From Planctomycetota bacterium (GTDB lineage Bacteria > Planctomycetota > Planctomycetia > Pirellulales > UBA1268): 64,000 bases of DNA. Below the pieces are notes generated by a model that saw nothing but the letters and a program-made list of their open reading frames with translations, made no database searches and was not told the origin of the DNA. Position numbers and translations under genes: made by a program. Shown piece by piece: positions 43,677 to 62,559 of the stretch (its first letter is position 1; each line of letters begins with the position of its first letter). Location of the stretch: NCBI GenBank assembly GCA_018970605.1, contig JAGWWA010000004.1, positions 2,289 to 66,288 of the forward strand. Reading direction: 5' to 3'.

Positions 43677-44531
43677 TCACTGCCCGACATCGCCGGCCGA
43701 TGCCGTCACCAGCGACACGAACACCTCCGGATCGACACTCTCCTCGATCGACCGCACGGAAGCGTCGCCAATGACGAACATGCACATCCCGGGATGGAAC
43801 GAGTAGATCTCGTTGTTGTTGTGCAGGTTCATCATCTGGCCGCCACGCTGCTCGTGGATGGCAAAGTAACTGTCTTTATCGGCCCACCGAGCGCCGCTCA
43901 CGGCGGTGCTGCCATCCGGCTTGCTACCCACATACCCCAGCGGCCGCCCCGCATCCTCGTAGAGAAGAATCGTCTTGGAGAGTCCGTCACTGACCGCCGA
44001 ACGCTTCCGGGCCTGCGGCCAGAGCATGCCCGTCCAGTTGGCGCGGGTCGTGAGTTGCTTGGCCGAAACCAGCGCGGAGTAGGCGGACGCATTGACCTGA
44101 TGACATGCGGCGTAGTCCGAGACCGGGTCAGTCCGTGCGGGCGCCGATGGGCAGACCGTGGTCGTGAGCGGCGAGGCCAGCAGCGCCTTGTTCTTGCCGA
44201 CATTCCAATCCTTGGTCCAGTCGACCTGATCGCCGATCTGCCCCTGCTCCATGTAGGAGAGGATGAAGGTGTAGAAACTGTGCCGAGCCGGAAGGGTGGC
44301 CGATCCGGCAGGCTCGGTCCATCCGGGCGGGATCTTCCGCTGGCCCGACTCATAGGCGTGCACCGCGAGGCCCGTCTGCTTGAGATTGTTGGAGCACGAC
44401 GTCCTCCGGGCCGACTCGCGTGCCGACTGCACCGCCGGCAGCAGCAGGCCGATGAGCGTGGCGATGATCGCGATCACCACCAAGAGTTCTACAAGCGTGA
44501 ACCCGCCGCATGGCCGATCGTGCCGCTTCAT
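43677..44531 (-). CDS. DUF1559 prepilin-like protein (H-x9-DA variant)
   Basis: Start at ATG 44531 ([43 protein letters not shown]). C-terminal [17 protein letters not shown]. Confidence 0.85.
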
Positions 44532-44554
44532 GTCCGCTCCGTTGATGGACTCCT

Positions 44555-47500
44555 TCACGAAAGCCCGCCCCGGGTCCCGTGACCATCGCGAACGGGTAGC
44601 CAGATTCGCCGTGCCCGGCACCAGGCCAGCACGGCTCCAGCAACGGCGAGCATCGCGGTTGCGGACGGCTCGGGCACCGCTGCCACGGCCGCTGCCTGAG
44701 GAGCGGGATTGAAGAGCCCCGCGTCGAACAGGCCGGTGGAGAGGAAGTCGGCGGCGTCGAGGATGTCCACAACGCCGTCGTAGCCAAAATCGCCCTCGTT
44801 CCAGTTGGCGGGCGTGCCGCTGTCAAACTTTCCGCCAGCCAGGAAGTTGGCCGCGTCGAGGATGTCGACGGTCCAGTCGAGGTTCGTGTCGCCCGGGGCG
44901 GAGAAGGCAACGCTCATCGCTCCGTCGCCGTTGTCGAGCCAGCCCAAGGTCCGCGGAATCGACTGGCCGAGAGCCGTAACGGCGGCGGACGACGTGATCC
45001 CGTGCGTGCCGTTCCACGAGCCGTCGCCGCGGCCGGCGACCAGGTCGGCCAAGAGGTCGGCCTGCCTGATGCCGCCGACGGCGATCGCAAAGCCGCCGGC
45101 GCCAAGGTCGAGCAGGCCCGCGGCCTCGTCGACGGCGAGGCTGGCAAGTGAGTGCATGGTCGCCGCCGAGGAGGAAAGAATCAGCGAGCCTCCGGCACCC
45201 ACCGAGACCGCCGGCGATCCCGCAATCGTCCCCGCACCACGAACCTCGACCCGTGCCACGCCGGTCGAGGAATCGACGGCGAGCGTGCCAGCCCGCAGCG
45301 TGCCCCCGTCCACCGTCACCTTCGGGGATCGCATCGTCACGCCGCCGGCGACGTCGAGCATGCCAGCCGACCGCACGACGACCTCGCTCGTCCCGAGAGC
45401 AGCGGCGTGCGATACTCGCAGCGTGCCGCCAGACACCGTGGTCGCGTTGGTCAGGCCGGTCGACTGCCGCAGGTCGAGCGTGCCGCTGCCCGACTTGATC
45501 ACGGCGCCGCCGCCTTCGACGGTGCCGGTGACGGCCACCAGCGTCCCGGCATCGACGACGTCGACCGTGAGGCTGGGATTGCCGATGTAGGCATACCGGC
45601 CGAAAGTGCCGGTGCCGATGCCCGATACGCGGAGCGTTACCGCGTTGCCCGCATCGCCGATCGTGAACGCGCCGTTGCCGCTCGCCGGCAGCGCCGACAC
45701 ATCGAAGTCGATGGTGCCGTTCTCGAGGTTCACCGGCAGGTCAGCCTGAAGCACCACACCCGGGCCGAACGTGACGGTGCCCGAGGTGGTCTTCTGGAGA
45801 AACTGGCTCGTCGCGAGCCGAATGAGCTGGCCTCCGCTCCCAGCGCCGGTGAAGGCCGTCTCGACCCGGCCGGACCGGAGATCCATCCGGTCGAGGTTCG
45901 TGTTGACGCCGGTCCGGGTGCCCGACATCCGCAGCGTGCCGCCGTCGAGGATCAGGCCGCCCCAGTTCTCACCCTGCTGCAGGTCGAACAAGCCGCCGGC
46001 GTTGATCGTGACGTTCGTGCTCTGCGGGAAGTCGGCGTTGCCGGGGGCTCCAAACGTGAACCGGCCGCCGTCGTTGATCACGATCGACGTCGCATTGAGG
46101 TCGCCCCCCTGACCGCGATCCTCGAGGGCGAGTTCGCCGCCGTTGACCATCACCGTGCCCGTGAAGCCGGTGCTGCTGGCGAGGATCGTGAACAACCCGG
46201 GCCCCGCCTTGACGACCGTGCCGGCTCCCGACAGCGTGCCCGAATAGGTGAGGGCGTCGCCACGATTGAAGGTGGCCGTGGCCCCGGCCGCGACCGCGAC
46301 GTTGCCGGCCAGGCCGCCGGCCGTGCCGCCGTCGCCGATCCGGAGCTCGCCGGCGTCGACGCTCGCCCCGCCGGCAAGGCTCCCCGTGACGGTCACGAGG
46401 CCTCCCGAGACGGTCACGCGACCGGTCGCGACGCCGTTGGCGACGTCGAAGGTCGCCCCCGAAGCCACCGACACCGGCCCGGCAAAACTGCCCGAGGCGA
46501 GGCCGGTGCCGATCCGCAGCGTGCCCGCGGAGATCGTCGTGGCCTGCGTGCCGGTCTTGGCGACGGCCAGCGTCACGCGGCCGGTGCCGGTCTTCGTGAT
46601 CCCACCCGAAGCGATCGCACCCGAACCCGTGATCGTGTACTCGGCTGCCGAGTTGTTGAACGTGATCTCGGCCGGCGTCACGAACTCGTCGACGGTCACG
46701 GCCGTGCCGATGGCGGTGTCGTCGAACGCGATCCGGTCACCGACCACGAAGTTGGTCGCCTGCGACGTCGACGTATCGATCCAGTTGATGGCACCGCCGA
46801 CGTCGACCGCCGAGCCGGTGTCCCAGACGGTCGAGGCATTGCCCCGCCACCGGAGCTGACCGGTGCCGAGCACGTCGAGGTCGAGACGCGTGTTGGCCGT
46901 GTCGTGAACGAGCGTCGCGAGCACCCGCGGCGGCAGCGTGCCGAGCGTGAACGAGGAGGGCACGGCGGCCCCGTCGTACTCGAGCAGCGTGAACCGGCCG
47001 ACGCCCAGCGACTGGGACGACGCCAGCGACACGGCCACGGAACCCGAGAGCGTCAGCCCGCCCGGCGTGGTGACGCTCATCAGGGGCACCGCCGGGATGC
47101 CGGGCTCGGCGAGCGTGAAGCCGAGCTTCGAGCCGACCCCGAGCGAGAGGGACGGCAGCGAGAGGGTGGTCGTGGCGGCCTGGTTGACCACCGCGAACGC
47201 CGCACCGGCGGCGACCGACCCACCCGCCACGCCGGCGTAGGGTGTCGAGCCGAGGGTGCCCGAGAGGACGGTGAACGGGCCCTCCATCGCGTTGCCGCCG
47301 GTGAACAGGAGCGTGCCCGCCCCCGCCTTCGCGATCGGACCACCGCCGGCCACAGCACCGCTGATCGAGAGGACTGCGGCAGGATTCGTGACGTCGACGG
47401 TGCCGCCCCCCGCGGCCAGCGTTACGGATCCCGAACGGAGGGCCGATCCGCCGTCGTAGACCAAGGTGCCCGCGGTCGAGGCGCCGCCGAGCGTGAGCGG

Positions 47501-50500
47501 GCCGCTGCCGACGTTCGCGGCAGCGACGATCCGCAGCGTGCCATCCTCGACGGTCAGCCCGCCGGTCGAGGTGATCGAGGCCGACCCGTCGACCGTCACG
47601 ACGCCCGCGGTCGACTTCACGATCGCCGCCGCGCCGCCGACCACGAAGCCCTGTGTGCCGCTGCCGGTGAGCCGGCCGGAGGTCCAGATCTGCACCGTCG
47701 GCGTTCCACTCGACGTGATGCTCCCCTGTTGCACGTCGATCTCGCCGCCCAGCAGGTGGACGCCGCCGAGATCCTCCCCCTCCTGCCAGACCACGCGGCC
47801 GCCCGCATTGGCCGTGATGAAGGTCGTCGTCGGCAGGTCCGGGTTACCGATCTGGTTGTTGCCGAACTGGAACGTGCCGCCGTTGTTGACCACGATCGCG
47901 GTCGGAGCGAGGTCGCCGCCTGCACCCGGATCCTCTATCCGCACCTCGCCGGCGTTGATGGTCACCGAGCCGGTGAAGCCGTTGTTCGAGGCGGTGAACG
48001 TCGTCCGACCGCTGCCCGACTGCACGATCGCGCCCGAGCCGGAGATCGAGCCGCCGAAGACCAGCCCATCGGCCTGGTCGAAGCGGATCGTGCCGGCCGG
48101 GTTGACGACGAGCCCGCCGGTCAGAGCCGGTGCGGGACCGCCGGCACCGATGGAGAGCACGCCTCCGCTGACCGTGGCGATGGAGGCGAGGCTGCCCGAG
48201 GCGATCGTCGCCGACCCGCCGGTGACGGTGATCCCGCCGGCGATCGAGCCGTTGCGGAGCGTGAAGCCCCCGGAACCGCTCACCGCGAGCGGAGCCGCGA
48301 TGGTCACGGCGGTCGAGCCGTCGCCGGCCTGGAGCGTGCCCCCGGCCACGGTCATCGCGCCGCTCGAGGAGTTGGACACGAGCAGCGCGAGCGATCCGGC
48401 GCCCTGCTTCCGCAGGACCCCACCGCCGGTGATCGCCCCCGTGCCGCCGAACGAATAGGCGACCGCCGCGTTGTCCACGAGGATCGAGCCCGGGGCCACG
48501 TCGCCGGCGAGGGCCACGCTGCCGACGACCGACGAGTCGTCGAAGATCACCTGGTCGCCGGTCACGAAGTTCGTCCCGAGCGAACTCGACGCCAGTTCCC
48601 AATTGCGGGTGCCGCCGACATCCGCTGCAGTGCCGGCGTCCCATGTGGTCGACAGGTCGCCGACCCACCGCACCGAGTCGACGCCCGTGATGTCGAGGTC
48701 GATCGACGTGTTCGTCGTGTCGTACACCAGCGTGCCGGCCAGCCGGGCCGGCAGGGCGGCGAGCGAGAAGCCGCTCGAGATCGGCGCACCCTCGTAGTTG
48801 ACGAGCGTGAACCGGCCCGCCTGGAGCGCGCCTGTCGTCTGCACCGCAATCGTGTGGGCGCCGCCGGAGGTCACGAGCCCGTCGGCCGTCGTCACGCTGA
48901 GCAGCGGCACGACCGGATTTCCGGCCGACGCCAGATCGAACCGCAGGCCGGAGGCGCCTGCACCGAGCGTGAGCGTGGGCAGCGTGAGCGTGGTCTCGGA
49001 GCCGGTATTGACGACCGCAAACGACGCGCCGTTGGCGACCGTCACCGCCGGCGCCGCAAACGGACTGAGGCCCAGCGTACCCGACGAAACCGTGATCGGC
49101 CCGGAGAAGGCGTGCCCGCCGATCAGGTCGACGCGGCCGGGCCCCACGTTCCGCAGCGCGCCCGAGCCCGACAGGGCACCGGCCACCGTCAGCCGGCCGG
49201 CCCGGTTGAACTCGAGGATCGCCCCGCCGTCCACCGCGATGGGGCCCGCGATGCCCCCCGCGGTGCCGCCGGCACCGATCCGCAGCGTGCCGGCCGTGAT
49301 CGCGGTGCCGCCGGTGAAGTCGTTGTCAGTCGCGAGCGTCGCCGTGCCCGTGCCCGACTTCACGAGGCTGCCGCCGCCGGTGATGCGGCCCGCCCCAGTG
49401 AACGACTGGCTGCGGCTGCCCACGTCGAGCGTCACCCGCTGCGGTGACACGGCTTCGGCGATCGTGACCGCAATCGGGCCGGACCCGGCCGCCGAATCGT
49501 TGAACACGACACGGTCGGTGTCGATGAAGTTCGTGGCCGAGCCGCCGGTCTGGAGGAGCCAGTTCTGCGTGCCGCCGCTGCCCACCGCCGACCCGCGATC
49601 CCAGGTCGACGATGCGTTGCCCTTCCAGACGAGCGAGTCGAGCGTGTACGTGACGCGGAGATCGGGCCGCCGGTTGGCGTCGGACGCGGTCGGGCCGCCG
49701 AACACCCACCCATCGGTGGTCGCCGCCCGCAGCAGGAGGCCATTGTTCGCGGCGCCGGCCTTCCAGTCGTTCACGGTGGAGGTGATGTCGAACCAGCCCT
49801 GGGCGTTCTTGCCGAGCGCCACCGCGCTGCCCGAGGTGACGGCCACGTAATCGATGCCCGACACCGGGCCGCTCGAGCCGGTGCCATACGCCGAGTAGGT
49901 CGTCGTGCCACCCCACGACGAGAGCATGCGGTAAGCGTAGTAGGGTCCGCCCGACTCATCGTTGGAGGCGTTGCCTGTCGTGGGCACGAACCACGACTTG
50001 AGCACCGCGGCCCGCAGCGGCACCTGACCGGCACCGGACCCGAAGATGCCATCGTACTTCACGATCGCGAGGAGGTCAGGGCTGCCCGCGTCGCCCGGCG
50101 GGTTGCCGCCGGTCGGGCCGTCGAGCGTGATCGTCGTGCCGGCCGTCACGTCGAGCGTGGCGTTCGTGAGGCCGTGGAGCGTGATCCCCGAGAATCCGGC
50201 GTAGCCCGCGACACCAGGCTTGATCGAGGTGGTGATCGTGGGCGTGGTGGTGTAGGTGACCGACAGCTTCGGGCGGTAGGCGACGGTCGCATCGGCCGAG
50301 CCGAACACCTGCCAGGCGTCGGTCGTGTGGGCCTGCACCACCATGCCGTTGTTGGCGAGCGTGCCGTCGGCCCACTGCTGCACGAGCGGCGCGACAAAGG
50401 CGGAGTAGAAGGTGTTCTGCGCCGGGGCGCGGTAGCCGGCGAGCGGGAGGGTGGCAAGGCCGTTGGCGTAGGTCGGGCCGTTGGTCATGATCGTGCCGTT

Positions 50501-53500
50501 GCCGGTGCCGAGATCGTTCAGCGTGGCCGCCGCCGAGAACGGCACCTTCATGCCGCCGATCACGAAGGTGCCGGCCGACTGCGAGTTGCTGTTGCCCGTG
50601 GTGCGGAGCGTGAGTTGGGCGTCGAGAATCGTGGCGCCCGCCGGGATCAACCCGGCGGTGGACCCGAAGATGGACTCGTACTTCAGGAAGAACTGCCGCT
50701 CCGTGCCGTCGCCGCTCGACACCCCGTCGATACCGACGGTGGTCACGGTGCTGGTGGCGGAGGCATTGCCGATCGAGGCCTCGGTGATTCCCGCGTAGGT
50801 GGTCGAGGTGCCGGTGAGGGTGGCACCCTGCTGGAAGGTGACGGTCGTCTGAGCCTCGGCCGTGCTCCCCGCGAGCAGCGCCGCCAGCGCGGCCGCCGCG
50901 GCGGCCCGGCGGAGGCGTCGCCCCGCCCAGGCTGCCACGGCGGCGATGGCAAGGATCGCGGTGATGCCGGGCTCCGGCACGATCACGAACTGGCTGTTGT
51001 GGTTGACGACGGCCCAGGTGCTGTTCGCCGACGGATCCCGGCCGTAGGCGCCCACGTAGGCCGAGAGGTCGCCGCCATACTGCGTCTGGAAGTCGGTAAA
51101 GCTGCCGAGGTAGCCCTGCTGCGCCGGGATCGCGTTGTTTCCCGTGTTGCCCAGGGTGGCGTTCACCCAGTTCGCCGCCGTACCCGACGACGCGTTCCAG
51201 CCGAGGGCGAGCGTCGCCGCGGTGCCGGCGTCGAGCCCCGAGGCGTAGGTCATCGACAGCACGAACGGCGTGGTGCCGGTGGCCGAAGTGAGTTCGAGGA
51301 CATCCGAGAACAGGCCGGACTGGGTCGGCAGCCAGGTCATCGAGACCGTGCCGCCCCCTGCCGCGACCGAGCCGGAAAGAATCGATGCCGACGTAGCCGC
51401 GGAGGCCGACCGGAAGCCGGCGAGGCTGCTGCCGGCAGCCAGCGGCAGGCTTCCACCCGACGCCACCGACACGCTGCCGCCCGGTTCGGTCGTCACCGCG
51501 AAGCCGCCGAGGTCGAGCGTGGTGGCGACCGTCAGGAAGCCGCCGTTGCCAACGAGCACGTTGCCGGTGCCGAGCGCCCGCGGCACGCCGGCCGTGAGCG
51601 AGCCCGACGCGATCGTCGTGCCGCCGGTGAAGTTGCCCGATCCGCTCAGGAGGAGCGTGCCGAGCCCGGTCTTCACGAGCGAGCCCGTGCCCGTGAGGCC
51701 GGTGGGCAGCGTGAGCACGGCCGCCGCGTCGGTCACGGCGATCCCGCCGACGCCGCCGAGCGTGAACGCGCCCGACCGCGAGGCCGTCGCACCGTCGTAG
51801 CGATACGTGCCGGAGGTGCCGTCCGCTCCGAGCGTCACACTGCCGGAGCCGAGGTTCAGGGCCGAGGCGAACCGCATGGTGCCCTCGCGGATCGCGATCC
51901 CGCCGGTGGTGGTGATCGATGCCGACCCGGTGACGAGCACCTCGCCGGCCGTCGTCTTGACGATCGGCCCCGTCCCGCCGATGGCGTACGTCGCCCCCGT
52001 GAGCGTGCCGCTCGTCCAGCCGCTCGTGGCGGTGGTCCCGGAGAAGTTCATGCCCCCCTGCTGCAGGTCGACGAGGGCTCCCTGGAGGTGCATTCCGCCG
52101 AAGTCCTCCGGCTCCTGCCAGACCACGAGTCCGCCGGTGTTGGCCGTGATGTAGGTCGTGTTCGGCAGGTCCGGATTGCCCAGCGTGGCATTGCCGAACT
52201 GGAACGTGCCGCCGTCGTTGACCACGATCGCCGTGGCCCCGAAGTCGCCGCCGAGCCCCTGGTCGTCGATCCGCACCTCGCCGCCGTCGATCGTCAGCGC
52301 ACCGATGAACGAGTTGCTACTGGCGGTGAAGGTGACGCGGCCGGCACCAGACTTCGCGATCGCCCCGCTGCCCGAGAGCACGCCGCCGTACGTGATCGTG
52401 CCGGTGTTGACGAACGCCAGCGTCCCGCCGTCAGCCACCGAGACGTTGCCGGCGAGTCCACCGTCGCCGATGCCCAGCCGACCCGCGGTGATCGTGGCGC
52501 CGGATTCGAACGTGCCGGCACCGAACGAGGCCGTGCCACCGCTCACGGTGACGAGGCCCGCAACCGTGCCGGACGTGAACGTGGCCGTCCCGGCCGAGAC
52601 CCCGAGCGTGCCGGCGAGCCGCGAGTTGCGGACGTCGAGCAGGCCGCCCGCCACGCTCACGTTGCCGGCCACGTTTACGGCCGTCGAGGCATCCCCGAGC
52701 TGCAGCGTGCCAGCCGACACCAAGGTGCCGCCAGAGGAAGAGTTGGAGACGAGCAGCGTCATCCGGCCGGTGCCGCTCTTCGTGAACACGCCCGAGCCGC
52801 CGATCGACCCCGGGCCGCCGAGCGTGTAGTCGAGCGTCGCGTTGCTCGCCGCGATCGCACCGGGCGCGACGACACCCACGATCGACACCGTGCCACTGGA
52901 GGCGGAGTCGTCGAAGCCGACCTGGTCGCCCGTGTAGAAGTTGGTGACCGTGGTGCCCGTCGAGGCAAGCACCCAGTCGAAGGCGCCGCCCACGTCCACC
53001 GCCGCGCCGGTGTCCCACGTGGTCGAGCTGCCCCCCTTCCACCGCAGCGTGTCGACGCCCGTGATGTCGAGGTCGATGGTCGTGGCCGTCGTGTCGTAGA
53101 CGAGGGTTCCGGTCAGCCGCTGGGGCAGGGGGGCGAGCGTGAAACCGGACGAGATCCCGGCGCCGGCGTAGTCGACAAGCGTGAATCGCCCGACTCCGAG
53201 CGCGCCAGTCGACGCGAGCGAGATCGTCTGGCCGCCTCCGCCGAGCGTCAGGCCGTCGGCCTGCGTCACCGAGAGCAGCGGCACGGCGGGATTCGACGCG
53301 GCCGCCAGCTCGAAGCCGAGTGTCGAGCCGGCCGCTCCAAGGGCGAGCGTGGGCGTCGTGAAGGTCGTGGCCGTCGCGCCGCTGGAGGCGGCGAAGGTGG
53401 CGCCGTTCGCCACGGTCACACCTCCGACGCCGCTGCTGCCCGAGCCGAGCACGAGCGTGCCGGCAGCAACCGACACCGGGCCCGCGAAGGCGATCGGCGC

Positions 53501-55297
53501 CGAGAGAGCCACGCGGCCCGCCCCGGCCTTCACGATCGCCCCGCTGCCGGTCACCGCGCCGGTCATGGTAACGCTGCCCGTTCGGTTGAAGGCCAGCGTG
53601 GCCCCGGAGGCGACGGCGATGCGGCCGGCGAGCGATCCGGTCGCGCCGCCGTCACCGAGCTGCAGCGTGCCCGCCGACACCGTCGTGCCGCCCGTGAAGT
53701 CGTTGTCGGTGGCGAGCACGGCGAGGCCCGTGCCGGTCTTCTCGAGCAGGCCCGCGCCCGTGATCCGGCCGGAGCCGGTGAACGTGTACCCCCGCGAGGC
53801 CACGTCGATCGTCGTCCGCTGCGGAGCAACGGCGGCGGCGATCACCACGGCCACGGACCCTTCGCCGGTGGCGTTGGCGTTGAACACCACGCGGTCGGTG
53901 TCGATGAAGTTGGTGGCCGTGCCGGCCGTCTGCAACTGCCAGTTCGGCGTGCCGCCGACGCCGACCGCCGAGCCCTTGTTCCACGTCGTCGAGGAAGCCC
54001 CGGTCCAGACGAGCGAATCGATCACATACGCCGTGCGGAGATCCGGCCGGCGGCCCGCGTCCGAGTTGCCGCCGCCGCCGACCACCCAGCCGTCGGTGGT
54101 GGCCGCCTTGACCAGCAGACCGTTGTTGGCCGCGCCTCCCTGCCACGCCGCCACGGCCGACGTGACGTCGATCCACGCCTGCGCATTCTGCGACATGGCG
54201 TTCGCGGTGCCCGTCGCCGCCGCGACGTAGTCGGTGCCCGCGACCGGGCCGCTCGACCCGGTGCCGAAGCTCGCGTACGTCGTCGTGCCTCCCCACGCTG
54301 TCAGCATCCGGTGCACGCTGTAGGGACCCGCCGACTGGTCGTTGGAGCCGTTGCCGGTGGTGAGCACGAGCCAGCTCTTCGCGATGCTCGCCCGCACCGG
54401 CACCTGATCGGCCGCCGACCCCACTACGCCGTCGAACTTCAGGAACCCGAGCAGATCGGGGCTGCCGGCGTCGCCCGGGGGCGTGCCGCCGGTGGGCCCG
54501 TCGAGTGCGATCGTGGAGGCTGCGGTCGCATCGGTGGTCAGACCGGAGACGCCGTTCATCGTCACGGCCGTCAGCCCCTGGTAGCCTCCCACACCCTGCT
54601 TGAGCGACGCAGTCGTCGTCGGCTGGGCGGTGTAGGTGACGGCCAGCTGAGGCCGATTCGCGACGGTCGCGTTGGCGATTCCGCCCAGGACCCACGCATC
54701 GGTGGTCTGCGCCTGGACGACGAATCCGTTGTTGGCAAGGGTGCCATCAGCCCACTGCTGCACGAGCCCGGGGCCGAGCGGGATGGCGTAGGCGGTGTTC
54801 AACGCCGGCGCCCGCAGCGAGCCATAGCCAATCGTCGCATTCCCGTTGGCGTAAGTCGGGCCGTTGGTTCCGGGCGCACCCGTGCCGGTGCCGAACTGCG
54901 TGATCGACGTGCCGGACGTGTACGACGTTCGCATCCCGGAGAACAGGAAGTAGCCGCCGCTGTTGTCGTTGGTCGCACTGCCCGTCGTCACGCGGAGCGA
55001 GGCTTCGAGGATGGTGGCCCCGGCGGGAATCTGCCCCGCGCCGCCCCCGAAGATCGAGCCGAAGGTCAGGAAGTACTGCGACTCCGTGTTGTCGCCGGCG
55101 TTCGAGCCATCCACGTTGGCCGTGACCCGCGACGACGTGCCGCCCGTCATGTTGATCTGGCGATCGACGGCGCCGGAGTAGCCGGCGGTCCCCTGCTGGA
55201 AAGTGACCGTGGACGTCGTCACGGCCTGCGCCAGGGCGACGGCAGGCAGGCAGGCGAGGACACCGAACAGGGCTGAAGTGCGTCGGAACCCGATCAT
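44555..55297 (-). CDS. giant surface protein ORF (3580 aa): two tandem paralogous units, each signal peptide + 2 DNRLRE/CBM96-like domains + long PATR beta-strand repeat arrays + PEP-CTERM
   Basis: Start at ATG 55297 ([25 protein letters not shown]). The track start at 55603 would overlap the lipoprotein gene. There is an internal [25 protein letters not shown], and the C-terminus has dockerin-like repeats plus [24 protein letters not shown]. Confidence 0.8.
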
Positions 55298-55376
55298 GGT
55301 GACACCTGGGGGGGAACGTGTGCGATGCGAAACGAGGCGGGCGGACAGCAGGATCGACGGGCAGCCACGGGGCTCG

Positions 55377-55895
55377 TCACCCAGGCGGCTTGGCGGCACG
55401 CGTGGTGAGATCGAACGGGGCAATGCTGGACGACATCCGGCCGACGGAGGCCTTGAGCGGCGACGTCTCCGGGTTCGCGAACCGGCCACCGAGGCGGTCC
55501 ACCTCGGTCGCGTTGGCCGCGGCGGCAGCCTCGGGATCGTCCGACGTGCTCGTCGCCTTCTCGGGGCCTCCGGCGAACCACTCCGCCGTGACGACGTACT
55601 CACCCACCGGCGCGCCGTCGGCCATCTCGTAGGTGCCGATCACGAACGAACCGTCGGATCCGGTGCGGGCCGTTGGACGAAGTTTCTCGAGCCTCGTGTC
55701 ACCGGCGTTGATCGGATGAAGCACCACCTGCACGCCCGCCACCGGCTTCCCGTCGACCCGGACGGTTCCCTGGGCCGGCACCGTGGCGAGCCGATCCGAG
55801 CCGCAGCCGACGACGGCAACCACGGCGACGCATGCCACCACCGCGACGACGAACGAGGCAGCACCTGGCGGAACGTGCAGGACTGGGCTGGACAC
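55377..55895 (-). CDS. small lipoprotein with carboxypeptidase-regulatory-like domain (paralog of 23567..24091)
   Basis: Lipobox VAVVGC, then AQGTVRVDGKPVAGVQVVLHP...TGSDGSFVIGT...GEYVVTA. Confidence 0.7.
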   Translation of the reverse strand: MSSPVLHVPPGAASFVVAVVACVAVVAVVGCGSDRLATVPAQGTVRVDGKPVAGVQVVLHPINAGDTRLEKLRPTARTGSDGSFVIGTYEMADGAPVGEYVVTAEWFAGGPEKATSTSDDPEAAAAANATEVDRLGGRFANPETSPLKASVGRMSSSIAPFDLTTRAAKPPG

Positions 55896-55976
55896 GGGTA
55901 ACCTTCCGAGGCGAGCGTCGCGGCCTACCGGGGCGGCGACGTACCGAGGTTGTCACCGACGACGGTGAGCGGCGTG

Positions 55977-58274
55977 TCAGGCGACCGTGAGAGTTCGGCG
56001 AGAAATCGATGAGCGTTGCGTGAGCGAGCGGGTTTGCACGGGCCCCACGTCGACCATCGCGAACGCGGCAAACGCAGCGGCGAGCGAGCCGGAGGTCGCC
56101 ACGGGCCGGGGAGCTGCCGCAGCGGACGCTGCTCGCCAGACGACGACCAGCCGAGGCCGGTCTCCGGGTGCGAGGGCTTCACTGCTGGAAAACCCCCAGG
56201 GATCGGTCGACCCGCCGCGGATCGCCCAGCCGTAATTGGGAGCGCCGCCAGCCCATGCCCGCACGCTCGTCGTGACGTCGAACGACGCGACCCCCGGCGC
56301 CACCGAGCCGATCACCCGATCCGTGCCCACCTCGGCCTCGATGCCGTCGAGCTGCACGCCATTGCCGCCGTAGGCCGACGCCCACGTGGCTGCCGCCGAG
56401 AACGGCTTCCGCAGCCGCACGAGGCTCGCGCCCCCGCCGGCGGCGTCGGGCACCGCGGCGGGCGTGGTGAGCACGACCCGGGCGGATTCGATCGCGGCCC
56501 CGGCAGGAATCAGGCCGGCTCCGCTCCCGAAGAGGCCATCGAACCGCAGCAGGCCCACCTGCTGACGTCCTGTCACCGCCCCGGCCCAGATGATCGCCGA
56601 CGCGTCGAAGCCTCCGGTCGGCCGCTGCTGCGAGAGCAGGGTGTCGGCTGCCCCCGAGTAACCGGCCACGCCCTGCTGGAAGGTCGCCGTCGCGGCCGTG
56701 GCCCGCACCCACTCGACCTCGAGCCGGGGGCGGTCGTCGATCGCCGCGGCCTCGGACGAGGCAAACGCCCAGCCGTCGGTGCCGGCGTTCCAGGGAACGA
56801 AGGCCCAGCCGCGATTCGCCTCCCCGTCGGCCCAGGCCTGCACGTCGGCCGTCACGTCGATCGTGAAGCCGGAGGCGGCCGGAACCAGCGGGGCGCGAAA
56901 CGCGGTGCCTGCCTGCGCAGTGGACGCCACCGCAGCCTCGCGGCCGTCGGCCTGCACGCCCCCCGCCAGGGAGTTCCACGTTGCCGAGGCCGACCATGCC
57001 GCAAGCATCCTGTGAAGCCGGCCGCCGGCGCCGGGATTCGTGGATGCGACGACCAGCCTGGCCGACGTCACCCGCGCTCCAGCGGGAATCTGGCCGGCCG
57101 CGGTCCCCACGATGCCGTCGAACCGCAGCAGCACCTGGCTGGCATTGGCCTGGGCGGCATCGGCGGCATCGACGAGCAGCGAGGTCGCCGACGCGAAGGC
57201 GGTCGTCGGCTGCTCCTGCCGGAGCTGCGTGTCCACGCCGCCCGCATAGATCGCTCCGCCGCTCACACGGCCCTGCTGAAACGCGCTCGTACCGGCCGCC
57301 TCCGGAACCTGCGGCCCGAACCGCCCCGCGAAGTCGACCGTGAACGAGAAGGTGCTGTTGGCGTCGATCTCCTCGATGCCGGTGAGCACGTTGATTGTCC
57401 GCACGTCGATCCGTCCGGCCGACGTGTCGAACCTGAGCACGTTCATCCATCCATCGCCGCCGTTGCTGCGGCTCTGGTAGTCGGCCACCATCTCGTGCAC
57501 CGGCTGGCCCAGCACGTTGAGCGATGTCTGGTGATGCTCCCCCGAGAAGTGGCCGTTCATCACGAGGATGATCTGCGGGTTGGGCCGGATCAGCTTCTGA
57601 AAGACCTGCTCGCCCGTGTTGCTCGGGTCGCCGGGAAAGCCGGCATCGCCGTTGAGCGTGGCCATCCGCGCCCGTGTCGTCGGATTGAGGTAGGAATGGG
57701 TGGAGATGATCGTGGGCAGGCCGGGGTAGCGGGCGACCATCTGCTGTGCCCAGGCGAGGTCGCTGTCGAGCGGCTCGAACTGGAAGGTCAGGTGGAGAAA
57801 CCGGTAACCTCCGGCGGTGAACGTCTGGGCATACGCGCCGAGCCGTCCCGACTCCTCGAGATACCAGCTGCGGCCGCGGTACCGGGCCGCGGAGAAGTAC
57901 TGCTCGTACAGGGATGCCCCGTTGGGCTTCGTGTACATCGTGCGATAGTCGTGATTCCCGATGGTGGCGGAATAGGGCACGATTCCGTCGGGGCTCGCGG
58001 CGAGGTTGCCGTCGAGGATGTCCATCGCCGCGTCGGCGTTCACCCACTGAGAAGCGGAGGCGCCGACGTTGACGATGTCGCCGAGCTGGCTGACGAAGGC
58101 GATGTTCTCGGCGGCCTTGTTGGCCACGACCCAGCGGGTTTGGGCCTTGAACGTGTCGGGGTAGGTCTGCGAATAGAACTGCGTGTCGGGGAGAACGGCG
58201 ACGGTAAAGGGCGCCGCTGCGGGAACCAGCCGTCCTTCCAGCCGCTCGAGTCGGAGCACAAGCGGATCACTCAT
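55977..58274 (-). CDS. metallophosphoesterase fused to three DNRLRE/CBM96-like domains
   Basis: The ATG 58274 overlaps the upstream stop (ATGA). An in-frame GTG about 63 nt upstream is an alternative start. LRLERLEGRLVP N-motif. AVLPDTQFY, QLGDIVN, GNHDY, NGHFSGEH. Three blocks ending ...DRPRLEVEW / ...DRPRLVVVW. Confidence 0.8.
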   Translation of the reverse strand: MSDPLVLRLERLEGRLVPAAAPFTVAVLPDTQFYSQTYPDTFKAQTRWVVANKAAENIAFVSQLGDIVNVGASASQWVNADAAMDILDGNLAASPDGIVPYSATIGNHDYRTMYTKPNGASLYEQYFSAARYRGRSWYLEESGRLGAYAQTFTAGGYRFLHLTFQFEPLDSDLAWAQQMVARYPGLPTIISTHSYLNPTTRARMATLNGDAGFPGDPSNTGEQVFQKLIRPNPQIILVMNGHFSGEHHQTSLNVLGQPVHEMVADYQSRSNGGDGWMNVLRFDTSAGRIDVRTINVLTGIEEIDANSTFSFTVDFAGRFGPQVPEAAGTSAFQQGRVSGGAIYAGGVDTQLRQEQPTTAFASATSLLVDAADAAQANASQVLLRFDGIVGTAAGQIPAGARVTSARLVVASTNPGAGGRLHRMLAAWSASATWNSLAGGVQADGREAAVASTAQAGTAFRAPLVPAASGFTIDVTADVQAWADGEANRGWAFVPWNAGTDGWAFASSEAAAIDDRPRLEVEWVRATAATATFQQGVAGYSGAADTLLSQQRPTGGFDASAIIWAGAVTGRQQVGLLRFDGLFGSGAGLIPAGAAIESARVVLTTPAAVPDAAGGGASLVRLRKPFSAAATWASAYGGNGVQLDGIEAEVGTDRVIGSVAPGVASFDVTTSVRAWAGGAPNYGWAIRGGSTDPWGFSSSEALAPGDRPRLVVVWRAASAAAAPRPVATSGSLAAAFAAFAMVDVGPVQTRSLTQRSSISRRTLTVA

Positions 58275-58924
58275 GGCGCCGCTCCGACGGTCCAGGCCCG
58301 CACGACCCGCCCGCGGGCCAGCCGGCGAACGCACGCGGCCGTCGCGGCGGCCACCCGCTCCAGCATGCAGGCGGCGGCGTCGACACCCATGAGGTGCTCG
58401 GGATCGACCCGGCGCGTGATCACGCCGGCCGCGATTTCCCCGCGGATCCGCTCGCGGACATCCGCGACCTCGGCGTGCGAATCCCGGATGGCATCGGATG
58501 CCTCCGCATCCCACTCGCCGACGGCGTCGGCGGCCAACGACACCACGACGCCGACGCACGCCGCGAGGCGGTCGAACGAGGGCGCCGCGTGCGCCGCGGC
58601 CTCCCGATCGAGCGTCTGCAGGAGGGCATCCAGGCCGCACGTGGCCACGGCCGCCACCTGCAGGTCGGCGCAGCAGCCGAGCACCGTGGTGGCGAACTGC
58701 AGATCGGTGGCCACGGGCCGGTACCGGGCGAGGAACTCGATCGCGTCGGCTTGGAGATCACGGGCGACCGCCGCGATGTCATCGTGAATGACGCCACGTC
58801 GTGCCGATCCTGCCGCGACAGAGGCCGCCGGCACGGCGATCGTTGCCACGAGCGCCCCTTCCAGCAGCGTCGCCAGGGTGGCGACCCGCTCGCGGAGCCG
58901 CTCGCGTTGTCGGTCGATGTGCAT
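58271..58924 (-). CDS. divergent PhoU-domain protein
   Basis: Start at ATG 58924. There are two helical repeats: VIHDDIAAVARDLQADAIEFLARYRPVATDLQFATTVLGCCADLQ resembles the PhoU core (..KRQPvAsDLR..i.k...dLERIGD). The second repeat ends in MLERVAAATAAC. The acidic metal-binding residues of ERIGD are not conserved. Confidence 0.55.
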   Translation of the reverse strand: MHIDRQRERLRERVATLATLLEGALVATIAVPAASVAAGSARRGVIHDDIAAVARDLQADAIEFLARYRPVATDLQFATTVLGCCADLQVAAVATCGLDALLQTLDREAAAHAAPSFDRLAACVGVVVSLAADAVGEWDAEASDAIRDSHAEVADVRERIRGEIAAGVITRRVDPEHLMGVDAAACMLERVAAATAACVRRLARGRVVRAWTVGAAP

Positions 58925-58970
58925 GGCTGTGGCCCTGGTCCCTCCGAAGGCCCGGCAGGCTAGCGGCGAA

Positions 58971-58989
58971 TCGTGAGGATCGTGTGCGG
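58971..58989 (+). promoter_or_regulatory. TCGTGAGGATCGTGTGCGG direct-repeat element between the PhoU-like gene and the SDR gene
   Basis: Two TCGTG(A/T) hexamers 9 nt apart, in the 88-nt divergent gap. Similar to the elements at 9519..9658 and 31897..31916. Confidence 0.2.
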
Positions 58990-59012
58990 AATGGCCGGGT
59001 ACACTGCCACCC

Positions 59013-59855
59013 ATGCACGCATGGCATGGGCGACGGGTGATCGTGGCGGGCGGCACGGCCGGGTTCGGCCTCGTGCTCGCGCGGCATCTCGCCCGGGCGG
59101 GAGCCCGGATCCTGCTCGTAGGCCGGTCGTCCGACGGTGTCCGCCGGGCATTCGAGGCCTGCGAGCGGGCCGGCGAGTCGACCGCCGCCATGCACGGGAT
59201 CGCCGCCGATCTCGGCAGGGCGGGGGAGGGCAACCGCGTCGCCGGCGAGGCGCTGCGGCTGCTGGGCGGCATCGACGATCTGGTCTGCTGCGTGGGCCGC
59301 TCGGGCCGGGCGCGGATGCTCGACACGCCCGATGACGAGCTCCGCGACTACCTCGCAGCCAACCTGTTCAGCAGCACGGAGCTCGTCCGGGCCGCGGCCG
59401 ACGACGTGGCCACCGCACGGGGGCATGTGGTGTTCATCGGCAGCCTCGCCGGCAAGCTCGTCACGCCGTTCATGGGCCCCTATGCGGTCGCGAAGTCGGC
59501 GCTCGCCGCCTACGCCGACACCGTGCGGCTCGAGCTCGAGCCCCGCGGGGCGCACGTGCTGCTCGTGTCGCCCGGCCCGATCCGCCGCGCCGCCGACGAC
59601 CCAGCCGCCGACCGGGCCCTCGACCGCTATGCCGAAGACGCCCGCCGCGCCGGCCTTCCCGATGGAGCCCGGGCACCGGGCGGCACCGCGAGCCTTGCGC
59701 AGCTCGATCCCGACCGGCTCGCAGCCGCCGTGCTCGACGCCTGCCGCCGGCGCACCGCCGAACTCACCGTGCCGCGGAAGGCGGCCCTGCTCGCGGGCTT
59801 CATCGAGTGGTTTCCGAACGCCGGCCGCCGGCTGCTCGCCCGGTTCGTCCGCTGA
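59013..59855 (+). CDS. short-chain dehydrogenase/reductase (SDR)
   Basis: [22 protein letters not shown] (TGxxxGxG) and the catalytic YAVAKSAL (YxxxK), with an upstream Ser (IGSLAG). Confidence 0.85.
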
Positions 59856-59935
59856 CACGTCTGGCCCCGCGACACTGCCGGACAATACCGCTATACCTAA
59901 CGCCCGGATCGTCATTCACCCAGGAGAGCACGTCG

Positions 59936-61249
<1,314 letters not shown>

Positions 61250-61274
61250 GCATCCCCGGCCTTGCGGACTCGCG

Positions 61275-62252
61275 ATGGTGATCCGCCACGCACTCATGGT
61301 TCTCGCGACGCTCGCCACGGCGGCCCACGCGGCCCCGCTCGTCATCGCCCACCGCGGAGCAAGCGGGTACCTGCCGGAACACACGCTCGAGGCGAAGGCG
61401 CTGGCCCATGCGCAGGCCGCCGATTTCATCGAGCAGGACGTGGTGCTCACCAAGGACGACGTCCCCGTCGTGCTCCACGACATCCATCTCGACGGGGTCT
61501 GCGACGTCGCCGACCGGTTCCCGGACCGCCGACGCAGCGACGGCCGCTTCTACGTCCTCGACTTCACGCTGGACGAACTCCGCACGCTCCGGGTGTGCGA
61601 GCGGCGCGACCCGCAGACGGGACGCCAGGTCTACCCCGGCAGGTTTCCGGCCGGCACGGGCATCTTCCGGATCGCCACGCTGGCGGAGGAGCTCGAGTTT
61701 CTCGCAGGCCTCGATCGATCCACCGGCCGACGCACGGGTGTCTACCCCGAGATCAAGCAGCCGGCATGGCACCGTCGCGAAGGCCACGACATCAGCCCGC
61801 TCGTGCTGGACGTGCTGCGAACGCACGGGTTCGCCGCGAAGGCCGACCCATGTTTTCTGCAGTGCTTCGACGCCGACGAGGTGCAGCGGCTGCGCGGCGA
61901 ACTCGGCTGGCAGGGCAGGCTCGTGCTGCTCGTGGGCGAGGCTCCCGACGACGCGGCCGATCCGCTGCTGGCCGACGGCGTCCTCGCCAACCTCGCGGCA
62001 ACCGTGGACGGGATCGGTCCACCGCTCAGCCGCGTGGTGGGCCCCGACGGCCGGCCGACGGGGCTGGTGGCCGCCGCTCACCGAGCGGGGCTCGTGGTCC
62101 ATGCCTACACGTTCCGCCGCGACAAACTGCCGGCCTTCGCCGCCGACACCGACACGGCGCTGAGGATGCTGTTCGTCGACGCCGGCATCGACGGGCTGTT
62201 CAGCGATTTCCCCGACCTCTGCGTCACCTGGCTGCACGCCGCCCGCCCGTAG
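61275..62252 (+). CDS. glpQ: periplasmic glycerophosphodiester phosphodiesterase
   Basis: Signal MVIRHALMVLATLATAAHAAP. VIAHRGASGYLPEHTLEAK, IEQDVVLTKDDVPVVLHD, YPEIK, HAYTFR. Confidence 0.9.
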   Translation: MVIRHALMVLATLATAAHAAPLVIAHRGASGYLPEHTLEAKALAHAQAADFIEQDVVLTKDDVPVVLHDIHLDGVCDVADRFPDRRRSDGRFYVLDFTLDELRTLRVCERRDPQTGRQVYPGRFPAGTGIFRIATLAEELEFLAGLDRSTGRRTGVYPEIKQPAWHRREGHDISPLVLDVLRTHGFAAKADPCFLQCFDADEVQRLRGELGWQGRLVLLVGEAPDDAADPLLADGVLANLAATVDGIGPPLSRVVGPDGRPTGLVAAAHRAGLVVHAYTFRRDKLPAFAADTDTALRMLFVDAGIDGLFSDFPDLCVTWLHAARP

Positions 62253-62270
62253 CGCCGGCCTCGCACTCGG

Positions 62271-62300
62271 CCCCCATCGCTTACGCGATTGGGCTTCCTG
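62271..62300 (+). repeat. Family-A 30-nt repeat, copy 4
   Basis: Exact 30-mer. It abuts the family-B array head-to-head through the palindrome TTCCTG-AC-CAGGAA (62295..62308). Confidence 0.9.
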
Positions 62301-62302
62301 AC

Positions 62303-62530
62303 CAGGAAACCTCACGCCGTAAGCCGTACGGCCACCCCTCCCAGCAAGCGTAACGCCGTAAGGCGTACGGCCACCCCTCCCAGAAAGCGTAACGCCGTAA
62401 GGCGTATGGCCACTCGCCCAGGACACCTCACGCCGTAAGGCGTACGGCCACCCGCCCAGGACACCTCACGCCGGGACGCGTACGGCCACCCGCCCAGGAC
62501 ACCTCACGCCGTAAGGCGTACGGCTGCCCC
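62303..62530 (+). repeat. Tandem array of six 38-39-nt family-B units (no unique spacers)
   Basis: Units start at 62303, 62342, 62381, 62419, 62457 and 62495. Each unit is CAG(G/C/A)A..-ACGCC-GNRA-GGCGT-ACGGCC(A/T)CCC.... Unit 5 has a GGGA loop in place of GTAA. Confidence 0.9.
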
Positions 62531-62559
62531 TCGCTGGCCTCGAACTCGGGCCCGATCCC

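What the first reader, a model, noticed from the sequence alone, without database searches (positions are those of the whole stretch)
50830..50985. A complete PEP-CTERM anchor fused in frame to a complete signal peptide in the middle of a 3580-aa ORF
On the minus strand the ORF reads ...[58 protein letters not shown].... The first part is a textbook PEP-CTERM sorting signal: VPEP at 50969..50980, a TM helix, then a basic cluster. The next residues form a signal-peptide h-region and an AEA|Q cleavage site. The mature sequence then restarts the same architecture found at the true N-terminus (MIGFRR...ALAQA|[11 protein letters not shown]). An in-frame GTG at 50938 would give [29 protein letters not shown], a perfect signal peptide that reuses the PEP-CTERM basic tail as its n-region. 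I see no stop codon in any frame around the junction, so this is not a simple frameshift artefact. There are three possibilities. (a) Two tandem paralogs fused, perhaps by recombination between Ala-codon runs. (b) A polyprotein is made whose TM-hairpin topology (out-in, RRLRR in the cytoplasm, in-out) allows both exosortase and signal-peptidase processing into two surface proteins. (c) The downstream unit is initiated internally. I know of no described case of a PEP-CTERM signal used internally in this way.
Basis: partly seen in the sequence, partly recalled or inferred. Interest (0 to 1): 0.72.

Follow-up and report, generated by a model that had tools for sequence, protein, structure and literature searches.

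The report
Two surface proteins fused in-frame
One 3580-residue gene of a planctomycete joins two paralogous cell-surface proteins, so that the membrane anchor (PEP-CTERM) of the first runs without a stop codon into the export signal of the second; the join is real, old, conserved, and recurs in dozens of unrelated proteins, which suggests an undescribed way of making two sorted surface proteins from one polyprotein.

Summary
The minus-strand ORF 44555..55297 (3580 aa) reads ...[43 protein letters not shown]|QTTVTFQQG.

It is not an artefact. A related species (dS about 0.8) has the same in-frame junction. There it was assembled repeatedly: five full-length alleles, listed on 15 contigs in all.

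Both halves are under purifying selection (dN/dS about 0.17). They are old paralogs (56% aa identity).

In other organisms the two sides of the junction are the C-terminal end and the N-terminal start of separate proteins. This is therefore an ancient fusion of tandem genes.

One relative (L008) has deleted the first unit. It keeps the junction remnant as the N-terminal leader of unit 2.

The same architecture is found in about 30 other database proteins from three passenger families. It is: PEP, 15-20 hydrophobic residues, a +3 to +7 loop, a signal-peptide h-region, then AXA.

Best reading (inferred, not shown): a polyprotein forms a membrane helical hairpin. Signal peptidase I and exosortase then cut it into two surface proteins.

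New finding: the junction codons form the most stable RNA/DNA hairpin in the 64-kb window. Its synonymous sites are conserved (P about 2e-5). It buries the proposed internal GTG, which argues against free internal initiation there.

The parts
44555..55297 (-). Fused ORF, 3580 aa: unit 1 plus unit 2, a giant DNRLRE/PATR (autotransporter-associated beta-strand repeat) surface protein
   Evidence: The ortholog P0013 is 3579 aa.
55223..55297 (-). N-terminal signal peptide of unit 1 ([25 protein letters not shown]|V)
   Evidence: Orthologous N-termini are seen in L001, L007 and P0003.
50981..55222 (-). Unit 1 mature part: two DNRLRE domains, PATR repeats, and a conserved C-terminal module of about 90 aa
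   Evidence: dN/dS is 0.17 against L007.
50906..50980 (-). Internal PEP-CTERM: VPEP, then the 16-residue helix [16 protein letters not shown], then RRLRR
   Evidence: TIGR02595 gives 16.9 bits against a cut-off of 16. The segment is homologous to terminal PEP-CTERMs of P0006, P0008, P0009 and P0010 and of more than 100 representatives. It is conserved in L007 and L009.
50852..50905 (-). Internal signal-peptide h- and c-regions ([18 protein letters not shown]) with an AXA site; RRLRR serves as the n-region; predicted cleavage is before Gln at 50851
   Evidence: Positions -3 and -1 are conserved (AEA, AHA, ARA) in window, L007 and L008. The segment aligns with the N-terminal signal peptides of standalone homologs P0001 to P0003.
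44678..50851 (-). Unit 2 mature part: a paralog of unit 1 with an extra repeat module and a dockerin-like C-terminal region
   Evidence: dN/dS is 0.16.
44558..44677 (-). Terminal PEP-CTERM of unit 2 ([24 protein letters not shown] plus a 16-residue tail)
   Evidence: PF07589 gives 24.4 bits and TIGR02595 gives 19.6 bits.
50892..50944 (-). Conserved 22-bp GC hairpin (RNA or DNA) spanning the codons [18 protein letters not shown]; the loop is the two Arg codons CGACGC
   Evidence: It is the strongest local hairpin in the window (-48.7 kcal/mol), and also in L009 and L008. The stem is invariant, or changes preserve pairing, in three sequences. Synonymous sites are conserved.
50936..50938 (-).

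Best explanation
SHOWN. The ORF is a genuine, ancient, in-frame fusion of two tandem paralogous genes for exosortase-type surface proteins. The fusion removed the stop codon of unit 1, the spacer, and the start and n-region of unit 2. As a result the basic cluster of the unit-1 PEP-CTERM (RRLRR) abuts the h-region of the unit-2 signal peptide. The fused gene has been kept intact, with both halves under purifying selection, since the window lineage and the L007/L009 lineage split (dS about 0.8).

INFERRED, from standard Sec topogenesis, the positive-inside rule and the known substrate rules of signal peptidase I.
1. Translation from the unit-1 ATG gives one polyprotein.
2. The N-terminal signal peptide starts export of unit 1.
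3. The PEP-CTERM helix acts as a stop-transfer segment.
4. RRLRR stays in the cytoplasm.
5. The Ala/Leu h-region re-inserts N-in/C-out and restarts export of unit 2.
6. Signal peptidase I cuts after AEA.

This would yield two separate periplasm-exposed proteins. Each would be held by its own PEP-CTERM helix and each would be available to exosortase. They would be made in fixed 1:1 stoichiometry at the same site.

The conserved, very stable hairpin formed by the junction codons is an added layer whose role is not established. The most likely roles are blocking initiation at the buried GTG or pausing ribosomes at the junction.
For: Reality of the fusion:
- The same junction is found in L007 at 80% aa identity, in a collinear locus.
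- L009, from another sample, is 99.76% identical to L007 and carries the complete 3579-aa ORF.
- The P0013 cluster has 69 members. At least five distinct full-length alleles, listed on 15 contigs in all, carry the identical junction.

Origin by fusion:
- Among the best 150 of 1.84 billion representatives, matches to the upstream side sit at extreme C-termini.
- Matches to the downstream side sit at extreme N-termini (sequences).

Age and selection:
- Unit 1: dS 0.86, dN/dS 0.17. Unit 2: dS 0.76, dN/dS 0.16.
- VPEP, the 16-residue helix, the cationic loop and A-x-A are kept. Position -2 varies (E/H/R), as expected at a signal-peptidase I site.

Natural experiment (L008):
- L008 has lost unit 1. 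It starts unit 2 with [49 protein letters not shown]|QTTV.
- The junction-derived leader therefore serves an intact 2148-aa gene.

Recurrence:
- 28 of 282 fetched proteins, 31 after a looser pass, carry the architecture.
- It is PEP, then 15-20 hydrophobic residues, then a loop of 3-19 residues with net charge +3 to +7, then an h-region, then AXA, then a further domain.
- It occurs in three passenger families. In the FGE-sulfatase family the cleavage context AXA|DVFNMG is identical in fused and standalone members.
Against: - No experimental data exist. Cleavage by signal peptidase or exosortase is not shown for any member.
- The unit-2 h-region is Ala-rich and only marginally hydrophobic as a re-inserting helix (my own estimate from residue hydrophobicity, not a tool result).
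- No exosortase gene lies in the 64-kb window, so the presence of the sorting enzyme in this genome is unverified.
- After signal-peptidase cleavage, unit 1 would carry 23 residues beyond its helix. This tail is longer than that of most PEP-CTERM proteins: 87% have fewer than 10 residues after the 24-residue motif, with a median of 3 (Haft 2006, PMC1569441).
- Some fused FGE-sulfatase examples have upstream units that are truncated or interrupted (L012, L013, L014). Some junctions may therefore be relics.
- The hairpin is absent from the independent junction in L010, so it is not part of a general mechanism.
Confidence: 0.6

Rival explanations
1. Unit 2 is made mainly by independent initiation inside the ORF, at GTG 50938 or from an internal transcript. 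The read-through polyprotein is then a minor or irrelevant product.
For: GTG 50938 would give [29 protein letters not shown], a well-formed signal peptide. The Val codon is conserved in L007 and L008. In a few fused FGE-sulfatase proteins the original Met and n-region of the downstream signal peptide are still present, for example P0213 ...RIRDA-MMNRKLSLMIL... and P0210. Synonymous conservation around the GTG could reflect an initiation region.
Against: The GTG sits within a 22-bp stem of about -48 kcal/mol, which should exclude free 30S subunits. No Shine-Dalgarno-like sequence precedes it. No promoter-like site was found, although the scan covers only sigma-70 consensus. With no stop codon, ribosomes from the unit-1 ATG must still read through, so the polyprotein is made regardless. 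The L008 deletion kept unit 2 in frame with the unit-1 ATG.
Confidence: 0.15
2. The product stays as a single uncleaved giant protein. The internal PEP-CTERM and signal peptide then serve only as a two-helix membrane hairpin that tethers two extracytoplasmic arms, and the internal PEP motif is a relic that exosortase does not use.
For: Haft et al. 2006 regarded PEP-CTERM copies far from the C-terminus as possibly non-functional. Conservation of four VPEP residues between window and L007 is not significant on its own at 79% overall identity. Cleavage is not shown.
Against: The A-x-A pattern, with variable -2 and a conserved mature N-terminus, is kept in window, L007 and L008. It is also kept across about 30 independent fused proteins. 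In these the mature start (DVFNMG, TVTFQQG) is the same as in standalone homologs whose signal peptides are N-terminal and so presumably cleaved. Nothing about an internal position is known to protect such a site from signal peptidase I (established knowledge of Lep substrate rules, not tested here).
Confidence: 0.2
3. The junction is a sequencing or assembly artefact (a lost stop codon, an indel, or repeat collapse), or a very recent neutral accident on the way to pseudogenisation.
For: The gene is repetitive and 70% G+C. Related contigs often break inside it (L001). Some ENA contigs of the FGE-sulfatase family show frameshifts.
Against: The same junction is found in a lineage with dS about 0.8 and in many independent assemblies. 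The units are only 68% identical at the nucleotide level, so collapse is implausible. No frame offers a nearby stop after RRLRR. Both halves have dN/dS of about 0.17.
Confidence: 0.03

Closest known systems
PEP-CTERM/exosortase protein sorting (Haft et al. 2006, PMC1569441; TIGR02595, PF07589)
   Same: The internal segment has all three sequence parts of the signal: the PEP motif, a helix of about 16 residues, and an Arg cluster. It is homologous to terminal PEP-CTERMs of related proteins. The same ORF ends with a normal terminal PEP-CTERM.
   Different: The signal lies 2015 residues from the C-terminus and is followed directly by a signal peptide. The founding paper describes the domain as 'virtually without exception' C-terminal and regards outliers as possibly non-functional.
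Bacterial polyprotein cut at an internal signal peptide: the FbcH cytochrome b/c1 precursor of Bradyrhizobium japonicum (Thony-Meyer et al. 1989/1991). This is cited from my own knowledge and was not retrievable in the held library.
   Same: One ORF. An internal signal peptide follows membrane helices, and leader peptidase is taken to separate two mature proteins.
   Different: In FbcH the partners are subunits of one respiratory complex. No C-terminal sorting signal or second processing enzyme is involved. Here the upstream helix is itself a sorting signal and the partners are paralogous surface proteins.
Signal-peptidase processing of viral envelope polyproteins (flavivirus and bunyavirus type; internal signal sequences after stop-transfer helices)
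   Same: Stop-transfer helices alternate with re-initiating signal sequences that have AXA-type sites. Several membrane-anchored ectodomains are made from one chain.
   Different: Those are eukaryotic ER systems. There is no exosortase-type second cleavage, and the resemblance is functional only.
Extended signal peptide region (ESPR) of type V secretion proteins (N1-H1-N2-H2-C layout)
   Same: The L008 leader (MKTNLPSLTFRTPRF / [10 protein letters not shown] / ERCLRR / [14 protein letters not shown] / AARA) has the same five-part layout, and the passenger carries PATR repeats.
   Different: There is no sequence relationship, and this was not tested against PF13018. In L008 the H1-N2 part derives from a PEP-CTERM helix after a deletion. 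It is not an ancestral extension.

Membership tests
PEP-CTERM sorting domain (TIGR02595 / PF07589), internal copy at 50906..50980 | Conserved PEP motif | tested here: met
   VPEP lies at 50980..50969 and is conserved in L007 and L009.
PEP-CTERM sorting domain (TIGR02595 / PF07589), internal copy at 50906..50980 | Hydrophobic helix of about 14-18 residues directly after the motif, then a cluster of basic residues | tested here: met
   [16 protein letters not shown] is 16 residues and is followed by RRLRR. The spacing matches the terminal PEP-CTERMs of P0006 and P0008 to P0010.
PEP-CTERM sorting domain (TIGR02595 / PF07589), internal copy at 50906..50980 | Score at or above the curated HMM cut-off | tested here: met
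   TIGR02595 gives 16.9 bits against a cut-off of 16 when the 100-aa segment is scanned alone. This is marginal. In the whole-protein Pfam scan only the terminal copy is reported.
PEP-CTERM sorting domain (TIGR02595 / PF07589), internal copy at 50906..50980 | Position at or near the extreme C-terminus of the protein | tested here: not met
   2015 residues follow RRLRR. Haft 2006 reports that 87% of members have fewer than 10 residues after the motif. If signal peptidase cuts after AEA, the tail would be 23 residues.
PEP-CTERM sorting domain (TIGR02595 / PF07589), internal copy at 50906..50980 | An exosortase (EpsH/Xrt) is encoded in the same genome and cleaves the signal | not testable with these tools
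   No exosortase was found among 26 candidate ORFs of the window. The rest of the genome is not available, and cleavage needs experiment.
Sec-type signal peptide cleaved by signal peptidase I, internal copy at 50852..50920 | Positively charged n-region, hydrophobic h-region, and small residues at -3 and -1 | tested here: met
   The layout is RRLRR / [13 protein letters not shown] / STAEA|Q. Positions -3 and -1 are Ala in window, L007 and L008, and -2 varies. No SignalP-type predictor was available.
Sec-type signal peptide cleaved by signal peptidase I, internal copy at 50852..50920 | Location at the N-terminus of the translated product | tested here: not met
   The segment is internal in window, L007 and L009. 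It is N-terminal, within a 50-residue leader, in L008. It aligns with the N-terminal signal peptides of standalone homologs.
Polyprotein processed at an internal signal peptide (FbcH type) | Single ORF with no stop codon between two units that are separate proteins elsewhere | tested here: met
Polyprotein processed at an internal signal peptide (FbcH type) | Demonstrated post-translational cleavage into two mature proteins | not testable with these tools
   This needs proteomics or a reporter assay.
Structured RNA family (Rfam) or intrinsic terminator, for the hairpin at 50892..50944 | Match to a curated covariance model, or a stem followed by a U-tract | tested here: not met
   No relevant Rfam match at E<=1. 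No terminator-like site was found.

The most novel reading that the evidence does not exclude
Planctomycetota, and perhaps other phyla rich in PEP-CTERM proteins, routinely concatenate exosortase substrates into polyproteins through a bifunctional junction. In this junction the cytoplasmic Arg cluster of one PEP-CTERM doubles as the n-region of the next signal peptide.

The resulting helical hairpin would be resolved by signal peptidase I on the outside and by exosortase at the PEP motif. This would mean that exosortase does not need its signal to be at a translational C-terminus.

The shared junction may also act as a recombination cassette that swaps upstream units: the same junction sequence is found joined to different partners in the FGE-sulfatase family. 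In the window's lineage, a selected mRNA hairpin may tune translation across the junction.
Probability: 0.4. Interest if true: 0.8.

Novelty: new variant of a known kind. Interest (0 to 1): 0.64.

Why it matters
Exosortase sorting is widespread in environmental bacteria but is poorly characterised biochemically. Its signal has been defined as strictly C-terminal.

A conserved and recurrent architecture places a complete PEP-CTERM in mid-protein, directly before a signal peptide. This gives natural substrates with which to ask two questions:
- Does exosortase need a nearby free C-terminus?
- In what order do signal peptidase and exosortase act?

It would also add a bacterial example of polyprotein processing by membrane topology. 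Only a few are known.

There is a practical consequence for annotation. Pipelines currently label these ORFs as single giant 'autotransporter-associated beta strand' or 'FGE' proteins. Counts of PEP-CTERM proteins that only inspect C-termini miss the internal copies.

The junction hairpin is a clean case of synonymous-site constraint inside a coding region, and it could be tested by mutagenesis.

Tried and rejected
- An exact-sequence look-up of the 3580-aa product found nothing.
- The genome-contig scan did not recover the source genome. It returned only L001, a Pirellulales MAG ortholog whose contig ends inside unit 1 and so says nothing about the junction, plus three distant loci.
- The contigs of P0001 and P0002 showed standalone unit-2-like genes with unrelated neighbours. 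This supports separate genes elsewhere but gives no synteny.
- A word-indexed search with the P0061 junction found one weak hit and not even P0061 itself, so conservation of that second fusion could not be assessed.
- A mobile palindromic element was rejected. No second copy of either hairpin arm lies in the window.
- An intrinsic terminator and known RNA families were rejected.
- Programmed frameshifting at the hairpin was considered and rejected. There is no slippery heptamer upstream, and no nearby stop in either alternative frame.
- The whole-segment fold z-score (-1.6) is unimpressive because shuffled 70%-GC sequence also folds well. The local-hairpin scan was the informative control.
- I considered that L008 might be ancestral, with the fused form arising by internal tandem duplication. 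This was rejected for three reasons. Unit 1 has an ordinary 25-residue signal peptide and a different C-terminal module. The distance from VPEP to the Arg cluster matches terminal PEP-CTERMs. And L008 is not an outgroup.
- Literature searches for internal or multiple PEP-CTERM, for gene fusion, and for bacterial internal signal-peptide polyproteins found no description.
Full report
**1. The observation**

On the minus strand, one frame is open from ATG 55297 to the stop at 44555..44557 (3580 aa). Around residue 1440 of that protein it reads:

...[63 protein letters not shown]...

- VPEP lies at 50980..50969, the in-frame GTG at 50938, and the Gln after AEA at 50851.
- No frame has a stop codon between VPEP and QTTV.
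- As an isolated 100-aa piece, the segment reaches the curated cut-off of TIGR02595 (16.9 bits against 16).
- A second, ordinary PEP-CTERM ends the ORF (PF07589 24.4 bits).
- The protein carries four DNRLRE domains and at least 11 PATR (autotransporter-associated beta-strand) repeats.
- The part after the junction is a paralog of the part before it: 56% aa identity over 1217 residues and 68% nt identity. At that divergence, assembly collapse between the repeats is implausible.

**2. The two sides of the junction are the ends of separate proteins elsewhere**

I ran a word-indexed search (sequences) and an exhaustive HMMER search of 1.84 billion cluster representatives with the 220 residues around the junction. 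Both give the same picture.

- About 110 of the 150 best hits match only the upstream 90 to 100 residues: the module [37 protein letters not shown], then VPEP, helix and RRRR. In nearly all of them the match ends at the extreme C-terminus. An example is P0006: ...NHNSGFAVVPEPSTWALLAGSLTFMMVMRRRRRG-stop.
- The hits that match only the downstream part mostly start at the extreme N-terminus, with a normal signal peptide before (T)TVTFQQG. Examples are P0001 to P0003, P0014 and P0021.
- The 16 residues between VPEP and the Arg cluster match the spacing in the terminal copies. The whole PEP-CTERM therefore belongs to unit 1, and the fusion point lies right after RRLRR.

**3. The fusion is real and old**

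The single metagenome scan found two loci.

L007 and its relatives:
- L007 is collinear with window 59213..46123 at 73-77% nt identity.
- It has the same in-frame junction...[60 protein letters not shown].
- L009, from a different sample, is 99.76% identical to L007 and carries the complete 3579-aa ORF.
- The 90% cluster holds 69 members. Among those listed, five distinct full-length alleles differ by 1 to 19 residues and are recorded on 15 contigs in all. All of them, and a sixth member of 3550 aa, have the identical junction.
- Between the window and L007, unit 1 has dS 0.86 and dN/dS 0.17. Unit 2 has dS 0.76 and dN/dS 0.16. Both halves have therefore stayed functional for a long time after the fusion.

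**4. A natural deletion variant (L008)**

- L008 is syntenic with window 63999..58971 (87-93%). It then matches the unit-1 promoter region and then jumps to window 50955..44482.
- Its gene starts [49 protein letters not shown]|QTTVTFQQG and runs for 2148 aa.
- The ATG and the first eight codons are those of unit 1 in relatives (P0003/L011). Unit 1 has therefore been deleted in frame, from its own signal peptide to the middle of its PEP-CTERM helix.
- L008 is not an outgroup. Its unit 2 is 89% identical to L007 and 82% identical to the window. The contig is mosaic, with window-like flanks and tail and an L007-like body.
- The fused state is therefore ancestral and the deletion is derived.
- L008 shows that the junction-derived segment can serve as the leader of an otherwise intact gene.

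**5. The architecture recurs**

The search also returned other proteins with an internal junction.
- P0061 (933 aa): two DNRLRE/CBM96 units joined by ...GVPEPSSVVLLLGAIGAIALRSARVRRAAWTAAVALTVGIATNANA|QQ... On L010 it is a called gene on a 43.8-kb contig.
- P0014 (997 aa).
- P0037 (791 aa): a PATR protein, then PEP-CTERM, a signal peptide, an FGE-sulfatase domain and a second PEP-CTERM.

Searching with the P0037 junction showed that many FGE-sulfatase/PEP-CTERM proteins carry an upstream in-frame PEP-CTERM directly before their signal peptide. An example is ...PVPEPSTLVLLGIGAVGLLGYAWRRRRGRARCLSGAAVVVAMLIAGSAQA|DVFNMGG....

Counts and layout:
A looser pass tabulated 31 proteins besides the window.
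- The layout is PEP, then 15-20 uncharged residues (median 18), then a loop of 3-19 residues (median 8) with net charge +3 to +7, then an h/c region ending in a small-x-small site.

Two further points:
- Standalone family members start with a plain signal peptide of about 20 to 26 residues and have the same mature N-terminus, DVFNMG.
- The same junction sequence is joined to different upstream units. This fits spread by recombination within the PEP-CTERM coding sequence, which is my inference.

Caveats:
- This set is enriched by the query, so the fractions are not prevalence estimates.
- Some upstream units are interrupted or lack a signal peptide (L012, L013, L014). Part of this may be long-read indel error.

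**6. How it most likely works**

With no stop codon, ribosomes that start at the unit-1 ATG must make the whole chain. That follows from the sequence. The rest is inference from established rules of Sec topogenesis (stop-transfer helices, the positive-inside rule) and from signal-peptidase I specificity.

1. Unit 1 is exported.
2. The PEP-CTERM helix halts transfer.
3. RRLRR stays inside the cell.
4. The Ala/Leu segment re-inserts and restarts export of unit 2.
5. Signal peptidase I cuts after AEA.
6. Each unit is then held by its own PEP-CTERM helix for exosortase.

Conservation fits this model but does not prove it. VPEP, the helix, the cationic loop and Ala at -3 and -1 are kept in all three lineages. 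The -2 position and the h-region change conservatively.

No exosortase gene lies in the window. The founding paper treats non-terminal copies as possibly non-functional.

**7. A new feature: a conserved hairpin at the junction**

The 22 codons [22 protein letters not shown] are the most conserved 22-codon window of 2905 in the window-L007 alignment (95.5% nt identity against a mean of 77.3%, sd 6.4).

- 20 of 21 codons with identical amino acids use the same codon. The expected number is 11.3 and P is about 2e-5 with amino-acid-specific rates.
- dS is 0.125, against 0.76 to 0.86 in the flanks.

These codons form a 22-bp hairpin:
- 5' arm: GCCGCCGUGGCAGCCUGGGCGGGG
- loop: CGACGC
- 3' arm: CUCCGCCGGGCCGCCGCGGCGGC
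- position: window 50944..50892

Among window, L007 and L008, every substitution lies either in the loop (R to C changes) or preserves pairing (C-G to U-G, G-U to A-U).

In a scan of 15,986 56-nt windows on this strand, it is the most stable hairpin: -48.7 kcal/mol, against a mean of -19.3 (sd 5.3) and a next-best non-overlapping value of -39.9. It is also the top hairpin in L009 and L008.

What it is not:
- It is not followed by a U-tract and matches no Rfam family.
- It has no other copy in the window.
- It is absent from the independent junction in L010.

Its function is unexplained. It buries GTG 50938, which argues against free internal initiation there. The left end of the L008 deletion lies about 12 nt upstream of the stem.

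**8. Comparison with what is known, and novelty**

The parts are known: PEP-CTERM, a Sec signal peptide, and PATR/DNRLRE passengers.

The arrangement is a complete PEP-CTERM used internally, whose basic cluster doubles as the n-region of the next signal peptide. It is not described in the literature I could search.

The nearest functional precedents are the Bradyrhizobium FbcH cytochrome b/c1 precursor and viral envelope polyproteins. Both are cited from my own knowledge; one search found no paper in the held library.

I rate it a new variant of a known kind. It is real and recurrent, and its processing remains to be shown.

Noticed in passing
window 50892..50944 (-): The junction codons form the most stable local hairpin of the whole 64-kb window. 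Its stem is invariant across three diverged sequences, and substitutions are confined to the loop. Synonymous sites are strongly conserved. Its function is unknown.
   Followed up: yes
L008 9881..16327 (Ga0315904_10003164): A relative has deleted unit 1 in frame and starts unit 2 with a 50-residue hybrid leader (unit-1 start, then half of the PEP-CTERM helix, the Arg cluster and the unit-2 signal peptide). The contig is mosaic between window-like and L007-like sequence.
   Followed up: yes
P0163 to P0282; L012, L013, L014: Many FGE-sulfatase/PEP-CTERM proteins of Planctomycetota carry an in-frame PEP-CTERM directly before their signal peptide. The same junction sequence is attached to different upstream units, and some tandem FGE-FGE fusions occur (P0167, P0185, P0199, P0225, P0239).
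   Followed up: partly
window 50981..51250 (-) and more than 100 proteins: A conserved module of about 90 aa ([37 protein letters not shown]) always sits directly before a PEP-CTERM. No Pfam model matches it.
   Followed up: no
window 33992..36688 (-): The large and small subunits of ethanolamine ammonia-lyase (EutB and EutC) are encoded as one 898-aa ORF.
   Followed up: no
window 20000..30000: A lower-GC stretch (0.64 against about 0.70) holds an IS110-family transposase (21918..23075, +) and a 1869-aa Big_5/LTD/PATR surface protein (24104..29713, -). It may be an acquired region.
   Followed up: no
L009 14682..16740 vs window 10289..12347: A phosphoesterase/lactonase gene lies two genes downstream of the fused ORF in L009, right after the DUF1559 gene. 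Its 94%-identical copy lies 31 kb away in the window. This is a rearrangement between the lineages.
   Followed up: no
window 43677..44621 (-); L009 13764..14618; L010 1985..3034: A DUF1559/N-terminal-methylation (pseudopilin-like) gene lies next to the fused gene in the window and in L009, and also next to the independent fusion P0061.
   Followed up: no
window 44555..45550 (-) vs L008: The last 330 codons or so of unit 2 are 92-97% identical between the window and L008, while the rest is about 78%. The longest identical run is 93 nt. This indicates recombination within the gene.
   Followed up: partly
window 50174..55276 (+): A 1700-aa ORF lies antisense to the fused gene, and there are many other long antisense ORFs. 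I take these to be by-products of 70% G+C and not genes.
   Followed up: no
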